NCBI RefSeq assembly: GCF_009914755.1
Contig: NC_060943.1
Strand: one strand, 5' to 3'
DNA from: the human T2T-CHM13v2.0 reference genome, Homo sapiens
DNA: 64,000 nt
Shown: positions 12,205 to 60,680 of the stretch, in pieces
Numbering within the stretch: the first letter of the stretch is position 1
How the letters are laid out: the number at the start of each line of letters is the position of its first letter
Made by a program: the position numbers and the translations under genes
Notes under the pieces: generated by a model
What the model was told of the DNA's origin: nothing
Databases searched by the model: none
What the model saw: the letters and a program-made list of their open reading frames with translations, nothing else

Positions 12205-12462
12205 CTTCTAGCCCCCTCCACCCTCAGACCAGGAGTCCAGGCCCCCAGCCCCTCCTCCCTCAGACCCAGGAGTCCAGATCCCCCAGCCCCTCCTCCCTCA
12301 GACCCAGGAGTCCAGACCCCCAGCCCCTCCTCCCTCAGACCCAGGAGTCCAGGCCTCCAGCTCCTCCTCCCTCAGATCCAGGGATCCAGGCCCCCAACCC
12401 CTTCCTCCCTCAGACCCAGAAATCCAGGCCCCAGCCCCCTCCACCCTCAGACCCAGGAGTCC
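12205..12462 (+). repeat. MSR1 minisatellite (~37-bp unit CCCAGCCCCTCCTCCCTCAGACCCAGGAGTCCAGGC), about 7 units
   Basis: Tandem units visible; MSR1 is known to be concentrated on 19q13. Confidence 0.88.
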
Positions 12463-12482
12463 ATCATGCCTCTGACACTCAC

Positions 12483-12550
12483 ACGATCCAGACGCCAGAG
12501 ATAGCCCAGACAGCTAGGAAGACAGGCATCAGCGACAGGTAGCCCCACAT
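12483..12550 (-). CDS. TMEM150B: TMEM150B first coding exon (MWGYLSLMPVFLAVWAISGVWIV); total CDS 702 nt = 233 aa
   Basis: ATG at 12550, GT|gtgagt donor; likely acceptor cttcag| at 12607. Confidence 0.92.
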
Positions 12551-13766
12551 GCCGGGCTCTGCAGGTGAAGGAGCGGGGCTGAGGCTGGACACCTGTCTCT
12601 CTCACACCTGAAGAACCAGCCCTCAAGGAGGGCCCAGGTGCATGAGATTGTGGCCCCAACCACTAGGCCCCGCTTGGCTCTCAGGCAGAAGTCACCTGTA
12701 AGGGTCTGATCTGATTGGCCAGCTCTCCATTTCCAGGCAATTTCCCCACCTATCCCGCAGTGTTCAACCCTATCTCACGCATTCTCCTGCTTGAGGAATT
12801 TCTCCCTGTCCTCCCAGCCCCTCCTTGCACCTCCCAGCCTCTCCTTGCACCTCCCAGCCTCCAGGACCTCCTGGAGATGCTCACCTCTCCAAGATCCCTG
12901 GGGCTCTCAGTCCTGGGACTGGGGCTGGGTGAGCTTAGGGAAGAAGGGCTGGCATTCGGGATGGGGCTCAGACAGGCCAAGGCAGAGGCAAAGTCCCAGC
13001 TGGAGCGCTGGAGGGCTGCCTGGGGTCTTAGGTCTGACCAACACTTCCTGAGGGGCTCTCTACCTCCAAACCGCCATGTCCTCCCTCCTCAGAACCTAGC
13101 AGGCAGCACCTTAGCTTCAGGGGCCCCTAACTTCCTTCCTCCAGCTTTGTGGGTTCAACGTCCAAAGTCTCAGCCCTTCCCTCCCCAGGAACCAGGAATC
13201 TGAGCCTCCAGCTCTCTCCAGCCTGGAAGACCCAGAATTCCGGGGCCCCAGTTCCTCCTAGAATACAGATATTCTTCTCCAGCTCCTGATGTCCAACCTC
13301 CCAGCTCTTACCTACTCGGGTACCCAAGAGTGAGGGCCTCAGGTCGGCCTGCTCTCTGGGTGAAGCTTCTGTTTTGGGGCTGGGAGATATGGAGCACTGA
13401 CAACCCTGCCTCCTCCCCTCCACTCTCCTTCCTCTCACCCTTCTCCTTTTGCCTGCTGGAGTTCCCCAGGCAGGCTGAGCATGGGTGGGAAGGGAGCTTT
13501 CAGCGATGACATCTCCATCCGAAAATTCCCCCAGCCAGACAAAGACTGCTCCTGCCGCCTGACCCTTTTCCTTCTCTCTCCCAACAGCCATCTTCAGCTT
13601 CTGACCTCCTCCTGGCTTGGTATTTAGGGATTTGGAGTCATGGCCTCTTCCTTCTTCCCAGGACCCAGGAGTCCAGTCCCTCAGCCCCTCCTCCCTCAGA
13701 CCCAGGGTCAGACCTCTAGGCCCTCCTTCCTTAGACTCCGGAGTCCCTCCTGCCTCTGACACTCAC

Positions 13767-13832
13767 GAGGTCCAGACCCCAAGATAGCCCAGCCAGCAGG
13801 GACAGGGACAGGTAAGCCTCACATGCTGGGCT
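13767..13832 (-). pseudogene. Degenerate duplicate of the TMEM150B first coding exon (ATG TGA, indels)
   Basis: Aligns by eye to 12483-12558; TGG->TGA at codon 2; gtgagt donor retained. Confidence 0.8.
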
Positions 13833-14161
13833 CTGCAGGAGAATGAGAGGGGCTGAAGCTGGGCCCCTCTCGCTTTCCTCTTTCTCTCTCCTCCCCTTCG
13901 CACCTGAAGAACCAGCCCCTTGGGGAGGGCCCAGGTGCATGAGATTGTGGCCACGGCCTCTGGGCCCCCATTGGCTCTCAGGCAGACGTCACGGGTGGGG
14001 GTCTGATCTAATCGGCCAGCTGTCCTCCACTCCAAGCAATCTCTTCACCTGTTTCAGTGTTCAGTCCTAGCTCACACATTCTCCTGCTTGGGGAGTTTCT
14101 CCCTGCCCTCCCAGCCCCTCCGTGCACCTCCCAGCCTCCAGGGCCTCCCCAGGATGCTCAC

Positions 14162-14257
14162 CTCTCCAAGCTTCCTGGGGCTCTCAGTCCTGGAGCTGGG
14201 GCTGGGTGAGCTCAGGGAAGAAGGGCTGGCATTCGGGGTGGGGCTCAGGCAGACATC
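14162..14257 (-). other. TMEM150B: Probable TMEM150B non-coding 5'UTR exon (96 nt)
   Basis: ctttgcctctgcag|G acceptor and GAG|gtgagc donor. Confidence 0.6.
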
Positions 14258-14663
14258 CTGCAGAGGCAAAGTCCAGGCTGCAGGACTGCCTGGGTCCTTT
14301 GGTCTGACTGCCACTTCCTAACGGCTCTCTATCCCCAAACCACCGTGTCCTGTCTCCTTAGAACCTCACAGGCAGCACCGTAGCTTTGGGGGACCCTAAT
14401 TTCCTTCCTCCAGCTTTGTGTATTCAACATCCAAACTCTCAGCCCTATCCTCCCCTGGACTCAGATCGGAGCCTCCACCCTTGGGGACCCAGGAGTCCAA
14501 GCTCCAACTCCTTCCTCCTTCCCCAAAATGCAGGAGTCCAGGCCCCCAGAACTCTTCCCTTAGACACAGAAGTCCCAGCCACCTCCTCTCTCACTATGCC
14601 ACCTCGTGTCTTTTAATGGACATAAAATCCACATAACATTAGCCATTTTAAAGTGTACGACTC

Positions 14664-16426
<1,763 letters not shown>

Positions 16427-16784: not shown

Positions 16785-16920
16785 CGGCCACGGGTAGGTT
16801 GGGTGTCTGGAGCCTGAAGGATCCTTCCAGAAGCTAGGGCTGCTGGCCTGGCTCAGCCGAGGGGAAGAGGCTGTGCTTTTCCTCTGAGAAAGATGACGTT
16901 GCACTTTCATATTGAGGAAA
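16785..16920 (-). promoter_or_regulatory. TMEM150B: Probable TMEM150B non-coding first exon and proximal promoter
   Basis: CCG|gtgagt donor at 16784; unique sequence with TGACGT and GAGGAA motifs before the Alu field; TSS not visible. Confidence 0.5.
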
Positions 16921-19904: not shown

Positions 19905-22570
<2,666 letters not shown>

Positions 22571-49649: not shown

Positions 49650-52439
<2,790 letters not shown>

Positions 52440-53124: not shown

Positions 53125-54644
<1,520 letters not shown>

Positions 54645-60454: not shown

Positions 60455-60680
60455 CAGGCTGGACTCCGGGTCTGAGAGAGGAGGGCCTGGGCCTGGACTC
60501 CCGTGTCTGAGGGAGGAGGAACTGGGGTCTGGACTCCTTCTGGGTCTGAGGGAGGAGAGGCTGGGGGCCTGGACTCCTAGGTCTGAGGGAGGAAGGCCTG
60601 GGGTCTGGACTCCTGGGTCTCGGGGAGGAGGGTCTGGGGCCTGGACTCCCGGCCTTAGGGAGGATGGAGCTGGAGGTCTT
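60455..60680 (-). repeat. MSR1 array (~6 units, reverse orientation) in IL11 intron 1
   Basis: ggcctggactcctgggtctgagggaggag units. Confidence 0.88.

What the first reader, a model, noticed from the sequence alone, without database searches (positions are those of the whole stretch)
12455..14500. Intragenic duplication in TMEM150B with reciprocal exon loss (subfunctionalisation inside one gene)
Seen: ~780-bp colinear duplicates offset by ~1.28 kb. Each has the first coding exon and an upstream 96-nt exon-like unit. Copy A keeps the intact coding exon (12483-12550) and the upstream unit's donor (GAG|gtgagc at 12884) but has lost its acceptor (ctctgcag -> ctctgcct, ~12980). Copy B keeps both splice sites of the 96-nt unit (14162-14257) but its coding exon is dead (ATG TGA at 13824-13819, indels). 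MSR1-like units lie at the edges of the copies. Inference: the mRNA is stitched from one exon of each copy, and MSR1 repeats may have mediated the unequal crossover.
Basis: partly seen in the sequence, partly recalled or inferred. Interest (0 to 1): 0.7.

Follow-up and report, generated by a model that had tools for sequence, protein, structure and literature searches.

The report
Old duplication inside TMEM150B's front end
An 850-base stretch at the start of the human TMEM150B gene is present twice: the likely later copy supplies an untranslated exon to the main mRNA and carries a dead version of the first coding exon, an ordinary kind of within-gene duplication, although two menopause-timing variants appear to fall inside that extra copy.

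Summary
The duplication is real: 12344-13210 (A) and 13634-14477 (B), 84% identical, two copies in the genome. RefSeq's selected mRNA does join B's 96-nt UTR exon to A's ATG exon, and B's ATG exon is dead. The 'reciprocal loss' story does not hold. Copy A's unit is still an exon: RefSeq transcripts use its donor, it keeps several acceptors, and a macaque model splices both units into one mRNA. B's acceptor may be a gain: cat lacks that AG. The 420-nt spacer S between the copies is single-copy and has an exonic homologue in dog and cat upstream of one unit and the ATG exon. So A is likely the original and B an insert upstream of S, which one unequal crossover cannot produce. All four edges are MSR1-like, which fits repeat-guided gap repair or two crossovers. 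Transcripts starting in S can reach only A's ATG exon, which likely explains why B's died. The event predates the ape/Old World monkey split. This is a new case of a known kind. By offset arithmetic, not a liftover, menopause variants rs11668344 and rs117146677 fall inside copy B, which is the one testable lead.

The parts
12344..13210 (-). Copy A, likely the original, in its ancestral place downstream of S
   Evidence: order S-unit-ATG exon in cat model P0084
13634..14477 (-). Copy B, likely the later insert upstream of S
12483..12607 (-). Live ATG exon (CDS 12550-12483; acceptors 12607 and 12558)
   Evidence: hub RefSeq table; translation; scores
12885..12980 (-). Unit A: donor 12884 intact and used; no AG at B's site; AG acceptors at 12933, 12924, 12918, 12912 (and 12999 just upstream)
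   Evidence: hub table exons 12885-13290/13291
13211..13633 (-). Spacer S: single-copy, ancestral; holds RefSeq exon 13312-13597 (5' end is not an acceptor, so likely a start site) and an internal acceptor at 13379
13767..13903 (-). Dead ATG exon of copy B: stop at codon 2, net -10 nt; acceptors 13903 and 13832 and donor 13766 intact; not among the exons shown in the hub table
14162..14257 (-). Unit B: 96-nt 5' UTR exon of the selected transcript, with two short upstream ORFs
   Evidence: hub table
12213..12463 (.). 37-nt minisatellite array, 6.8 copies (MSR1-like), 3' edge of A
13165..13265 (.). Decayed MSR1-like units, 5' edge of A
   Evidence: score 71, shuffle max 48
13634..13750 (.). MSR1-like units, 3' edge of B
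   Evidence: score 134, shuffle max 50
14478..14600 (.). MSR1-like units upstream of B that are not a clear copy of A's upstream flank; likely the landing site
   Evidence: score 110 to the array; 38 to A's flank against shuffle max 37
16785..16854 (-). Upstream exon E1, with a likely homologue in a cat model
   Evidence: hub table; (0 of 700 sampled GT sites scored as well)
13806..14014 (.). Approximate places of rs11668344 (about 13806-13810) and rs117146677 (about 14010-14014), by offset arithmetic only

Best explanation
An 850-base segment holding a 5' UTR exon and the first coding exon of TMEM150B is present twice; copy A is likely the original, and copy B a later insert that likely landed by repeat-guided repair between MSR1-like units, upstream of an older exon (S) that likely carries an internal promoter. 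Shown: two copies; a single-copy S between them; repeat-like edges; B's coding exon dead; both UTR units annotated as exons in primates. Inferred: ancestral order E1 - S - unit - ATG exon (from dog and cat protein models); a date before the ape/Old World monkey split, roughly 30-55 million years ago (calibration recalled); one gap-repair or template-switch event (about 55%, against about 40% for two crossovers). How it works now: transcripts from the upstream exon meet unit B first, use it, and skip on to A's ATG exon. Transcripts starting in or after S can use only unit A and A's ATG exon. Because only A's ATG exon serves both starts, B's was free to decay. The unit copies are thus shared out by promoter position, not by reciprocal loss, and the protein is unchanged.
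For: S single-copy. S homologue in 5 of 12 non-primate N-terminal extensions tested (z 12-26, 0 of 40 shuffles each), tblastn E 2e-12 and 4e-15 for two canid models. Cat P0084 runs S, unit, ATG exon in one model. Cat unit equidistant from A and B, 70/112 and 69/112. Macaque P0016 fits unit-S-unit-ATG exon at 98 of 108 residues without gaps; vervet P0012 reads across the B-S junction. Non-CpG distance 0.127, between the median (0.113) and 75th percentile (0.143) of 1035 Alu pairs in the window. Repeat-like edges. RefSeq exons 12885-13290/13291 and 13312-13597 whose 5' ends are not acceptors.
Against: All outgroup evidence comes from predicted protein models, not genomic DNA; none from lemur, tarsier, New World monkey or rodent reached this region. 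7 of 12 extensions gave no significant match to S, including both pangolin models, and 9 of 12 no clear match to the unit. No start-site data were seen for S. B's dead exon has splice scores at least as good as A's (12.8 vs 10.8; 6.0 vs 5.2), so why it is skipped is unexplained; G-run counts differ only modestly (6 vs 8 in 100 nt). One event and two events cannot be told apart here. In the mouse knockout paper the ATG exon appears to be exon 1, so the unit may not be used there.
Confidence: 0.65

Rival explanations
1. One reading: one MSR1-mediated unequal crossover, then complementary exon losses, so that both copies are needed (subfunctionalisation inside one gene).
For: The selected RefSeq mRNA uses unit B and ATG exon A (hub table). 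A lacks B's AG. Donkey has an ATG at the start of the unit, like B. The unit is somewhat more alike between copies than the introns are, 85/93 vs 361/430, p=0.076.
Against: A's donor is used (hub table). Macaque model includes both units. A keeps AGs scoring 5.0-7.8, against 5.7 for B's acceptor. Cat lacks the AG. S is not duplicated.
Confidence: 0.12
2. Same present-day anatomy, different origin: unequal crossover duplicated S plus the core, and a second repeat-to-repeat deletion removed the upstream S.
For: S is flanked by repeat-like units on both sides; the product would be identical to what is seen.
Against: Needs two events; no remnant of S upstream of B (best scores 26-33, within shuffle range).
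Confidence: 0.3
3. Copy B has become a regulatory or splicing element whose variants affect TMEM150B or BRSK1 and the timing of menopause.
For: rs11668344 (P 1.5e-59) and rs117146677 (MAF 0.009, independent by the paper's procedure) both map into B by offset. The dead exon keeps its splice sites. B abuts the likely internal start in S. rs11668344 is described as a BRSK1 blood eQTL.
Against: Positions are arithmetic over 9.3 kb between builds. Lead variants tag long haplotypes (r2 0.72-0.98 among nearby markers). Noticed after the fact. No RefSeq enhancer is listed between 5054 and 29517. Mouse knockout is fertile (listing). Closeness to S could explain it without the duplication mattering.
Confidence: 0.1

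Closest known systems
[quoted passage not shown]
   Same: DNA-level copy of exons with their introns inside one gene; one exon copy decays.
   Different: Not head-to-tail: an ancestral single-copy exon lies between the copies, and its position likely fixed which coding exon survived.
Tandem exon duplications in UTRs (Ivanov and Pervouchine 2022, PMC9013439, passages read)
   Same: Duplicated UTR exons, and unannotated homologues of annotated exons.
   Different: Not mutually exclusive here (a macaque model holds both units); TMEM150B is not named in the main text.
Duplication-degeneration-complementation (Force et al. 1999, recalled)
   Same: Two copies, each contributing to the main product.
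   Different: Only one clear loss; the partition follows promoter position; no evidence that both copies are needed.
MSR1 minisatellite clusters of 19q (Rose et al. 2016, PMC4725990, passages read)
   Same: 36-38 bp unit, dense on 19q, old enough to predate the event; clusters vary in copy number and can alter expression.
   Different: Here they mark rearrangement edges; the passages read do not describe that role.

Membership tests
Intragenic duplication | Two homologous same-strand segments within one gene | tested here: met
Intragenic duplication | Exons copied with their introns (DNA-level, not retrocopy) | tested here: met
   introns align at 83-85%
Intragenic duplication | Single copy in outgroups | tested here: inconclusive
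   Carnivore and equid models show one unit, and cat is equidistant from A and B, but no outgroup genomic DNA was available
Strict tandem duplication by one unequal crossover | Head-to-tail copies with no ancestral single-copy sequence between them | tested here: not met
   S is single-copy and has dog and cat homologues
Repeat-mediated rearrangement | Homologous repeats at the breakpoints | tested here: met
   4 of 4 edges exceed all 300 shuffles; 0 of 2 controls do; exact breakpoints not resolved
MSR1 | 36-38 bp unit clustered on 19q | tested here: met
   period 37; description in PMC4725990
MSR1 | Match to the library consensus | not testable with these tools
Mutually exclusive duplicated exons | One and only one copy per mRNA | tested here: not met
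   macaque P0016 holds both units (a predicted model)
DDC subfunctionalisation | Ancestor had both functions | tested here: met
   donkey and cat models splice the unit to the ATG exon
DDC subfunctionalisation | Complementary degenerative losses in both copies | tested here: not met
   B's coding loss is clear; unit A remains exonic and its missing AG may be ancestral (hub table)
DDC subfunctionalisation | Both copies needed for normal output | not testable with these tools
   needs deletion of each unit

The most novel reading that the evidence does not exclude
A minisatellite-guided insertion created a primate-specific module, with a new UTR exon and a splice-competent dead exon next to an internal promoter, and this module holds causal variants of one of the strongest menopause-timing loci, acting through pseudo-exon inclusion or promoter choice.
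Probability: 0.08. Interest if true: 0.7.

Novelty: new member of a known kind. Interest (0 to 1): 0.3.

Why it matters
As evolution it is a tidy but ordinary case: it shows how an internal promoter between two copies can decide which exon copy dies, without any selected partition of function, and it suggests that MSR1-like repeats can guide insertions. The protein is unchanged. It would matter more if the two menopause variants that appear to lie in copy B act through it, because this strong locus is usually credited to BRSK1, and a primate-only element could explain why the mouse knockout shows nothing.

Tried and rejected
Twin of S near either copy: none and none in the genome. Processed pseudogene or third copy as a fossil of the old UTR: none found with the core (that search can miss). 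Selection on the unit: higher identity than introns, not significant (p=0.076). Coding role for the 150-codon open frame through S: open in human and vervet but only 83% identical, and dog and cat models change frame, so rejected as a likely annotation by-product. Polarity of the 22-nt difference in the ATG exon's UTR part: cats favour B's long form (z 5.9, 6.5), dingo favours A's (z 6.1), so unresolved. Homologue of exon 16256-16378 in cat and seal: 9 and 26 of 700 control sites scored as well, not accepted. Mouse primers as outgroup DNA: only the two in coding exons mapped clearly; the RT primer matched 13 of 20 bases at 12660, tied with other sites, so weak. G-runs as the reason exon B is skipped: small difference only. 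Search for S-type extensions outside Old World monkeys: 2 hits among 902 candidates, the vervet query and a 99% identical sequence. MSR1 as a cause of KLK duplications in print: the one hit opened was a DOI string. The Gao and Lynch paper and a large menopause GWAS were not held, so neither was read.

Full report
Observation. The region holds two direct copies on the TMEM150B (minus) strand: A, 12344-13210, and B, 13634-14477, with 687 matches and 129 mismatches (84.2%) and 20 gaps. A genome search with the core finds only these two places. The hub's RefSeq table shows the selected transcript NM_001282011.2 joining 16785, 14257-14162 and 12607, so the main mRNA does take one exon from each copy.

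(a) Between the copies lies a 420-nt spacer S (13211-13633) that occurs once in the genome and has no twin in either flank (scores 26-33, within shuffle range). (b) The hub table lists exons 12885-13290 and 12885-13291, which use A's donor, and 13312-13597 in S. None of these 5' ends is an acceptor (scores -12 to -30), so they are likely start sites or truncated ends. (c) With a matrix trained on 33 acceptors and 32 donors annotated in this window, A's unit keeps AGs at 12999, 12924, 12918 and 12912 scoring 5.0-7.8, against 5.7 for B's acceptor; 5.9% of 5093 minus-strand AGs reach 5.7, so these scores show competence, not use. (d) B's dead exon keeps its sites: acceptor 13832 scores 12.8 against 10.8 for A's 12558, donor 6.0 against 5.2. 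It is not among the exons shown in the table (three unlisted exons sort after 16785).

Outgroups. No mammalian DNA other than human was available, so I used predicted proteins whose N-terminal extensions translate the 5' UTR (69, 2 and 17 proteins). Sixteen non-primate proteins had an extension before the usual start; I tested 12 with a frameshift-tolerant alignment against seven regions and 40 shuffles each, leaving out one of 14 residues and three near-duplicates. Five (golden jackal, dingo, two lynx, Geoffroy's cat) match S with z 12-26; seven do not, including two pangolin models. Three match the unit (donkey z 15.8 and 10.3; bat 4.6 and 2.6; cat 3.1 and 3.5); nine do not reach significance, though short unit-like stretches are visible in several. 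Cat P0084 runs S, unit, ATG exon in one model. Cat P0075 begins with a stretch that fits the human 16785 donor better than all 700 control sites sampled from 2892 (cut point chosen by eye). The inferred ancestral order is E1 - S - unit - ATG exon, which is the setting of copy A. Copy B is therefore likely the newcomer.

Polarity of the acceptor. Two cat models read the unit in different frames, which fixes most of 117 bases. That stretch matches A at 70 and B at 69 of 112 positions; where A and B differ it sides with A 5 times, B 4 times and neither 5 times. It has no AG at B's site and has A's spacing. Donkey has an ATG near B's ATG, which fits either alignment. The carnivore models appear to enter the unit at other acceptors, upstream or internal. 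So the donor is the fixed part and the acceptor moves; a gain in B is at least as likely as a loss in A.

Primates and date. Macaque P0016 fits the chain unit B, S from 13379, unit A from 12933, ATG exon from 12558 at 98 of 108 residues with no gaps; swapping the copies gives 97, so the peptide proves two units around S but not which is which. Vervet P0012 reads across the B-S junction, and langur P0010 has A's short UTR form. The duplication thus predates the ape/Old World monkey split. The distance between copies is 0.16 overall and 0.127-0.139 without CpG sites (95% interval 0.11-0.17), between the median and 75th percentile of 1035 pairs among 46 Alus in the window. With recalled ages this means roughly 30-55 million years. 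New World monkeys and lemurs could not be tested.

Origin. All four edges resemble the window's 37-nt arrays (scores 110, 134, 71, 178; shuffle maxima 61, 50, 48, 61; two controls 27 and 19), while 25 of 639 window tiles score 60 or more. The unit fits the 36-38 bp 19q minisatellite MSR1 described in PMC4725990 (passages); the consensus was not seen. The repeat block upstream of B is not a clear copy of A's upstream flank (38 against shuffle maximum 37), so it may be a separate old cluster where B landed. One crossover would have duplicated S too. A break in that cluster repaired from the repeat-bounded core gives the observed structure in one step; duplication of S plus core followed by deletion of the first S gives it in two. 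I favour one step, about 55 to 40.

How it works now (inferred). Transcripts from E1 use unit B and skip to A's ATG exon. Transcripts starting in or after S can use only A. Only A's ATG exon serves both, so B's could decay at no cost. This accounts for the asymmetry without a selected partition. Why the splice-competent dead exon is skipped is unexplained; if included before A's exon it would add only a one-codon upstream ORF. Against universal use of the unit: in PMC7721906 (passages; no supplements held) the mouse deletion of exons 2-4 removes 256 nt, which equals human exons of 60+68+128 nt, so the ATG exon is exon 1 in that model.

Menopause variants. rs7246479 (Leu199Phe, G/T) fixes window 4474. 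Printed positions put rs11668344 9332 nt higher (both apparently the same older build, not stated in the passages) and rs117146677 a further 204 nt higher. That gives about 13806 and 14010; a +4 shift fits both alleles and a CpG site, but 11 of 81 shifts tested also fit. For shifts under about 40 nt the first lies in the dead exon, and both lie in copy B. The first is a lead signal (P 1.5e-59; PMC3596848 passages), described as a BRSK1 blood eQTL (PMC7970730 passages); the second is a rare signal called independent by the paper's procedure (PMC10502738 passages). This was noticed after the fact, linkage here is strong (PMC3570525 passages), and no function was tested. GWAS supplements that I did not see may bear on it.

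Comparison with what is known. Intragenic exon duplication is common and well studied (bioRxiv 10.1101/009282 passages; PMC9013439 passages; PMC3449122 passages). I found no description of this case: listings for TMEM150B (40 of 86 shown), TMEM150B with duplication (7 of 8), with splicing and menopause (3 of 3), intragenic duplication with subfunctionalization (8 of 8) and MSR1 with duplication showed no such title or abstract opening; TMEM150B is absent from the main text of PMC9013439 and of 10.1101/009282, and the DRAM-3 paper has no hit for 'exon' or 'splice' (PMC4563785 passages). Most listed papers were not opened, and supplements were not seen.

Verdict. Real, apparently undescribed, ordinary in kind. 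It is an intragenic duplication; it is not a strict tandem, a mutually exclusive pair or a demonstrated case of complementation. Interest 0.3, held above the floor by the corrected mechanism and the testable variant link.

Noticed in passing
window 13764-13312 joined to 12558: An open frame of about 150 codons runs through S in frame with TMEM150B; a Met at 13591 would add 96 residues. Also open in vervet, but only 83% identical and frame-shifted in dog and cat.
   Followed up: partly
window 14162-14257: Unit B gives the selected mRNA two upstream ORFs (3 and 6 codons); unit A lacks the first.
   Followed up: partly
window 12810-12861 and 13007-12999: Local duplications found only in copy A: a 20-nt unit (2.6 copies) and an 8-nt insertion that leaves an AG at 12999 scoring 7.2.
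   Followed up: partly
window 14600-15722: Old interspersed repeat upstream of B (40 scored matches at 80-94% among 345 candidates; L1M-type by recall), interrupted by Alus, one at about 14661-14960 with a target-site duplication.
   Followed up: partly
window 13762: The vervet model has Met where human has Val just inside B's dead donor, implying a weakened donor in that lineage.
   Followed up: no
window 16785-16883: The longer RefSeq form of E1 starts after an AG (score 2.8), so E1 is likely internal in transcripts starting further upstream.
   Followed up: no
window 51513-52245, 53127-53636, 60459-60679: Further 37-nt arrays (20, 14 and about 5 copies) in GARIN5B and IL11 introns.
   Followed up: no
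window 50841-51084: 30-nt repeat (8 copies) inside the large GARIN5B coding exon.
   Followed up: no
window 20319-20470: 32-nt tandem repeat, 4.8 copies at 99% identity, a likely young variable repeat.
   Followed up: no
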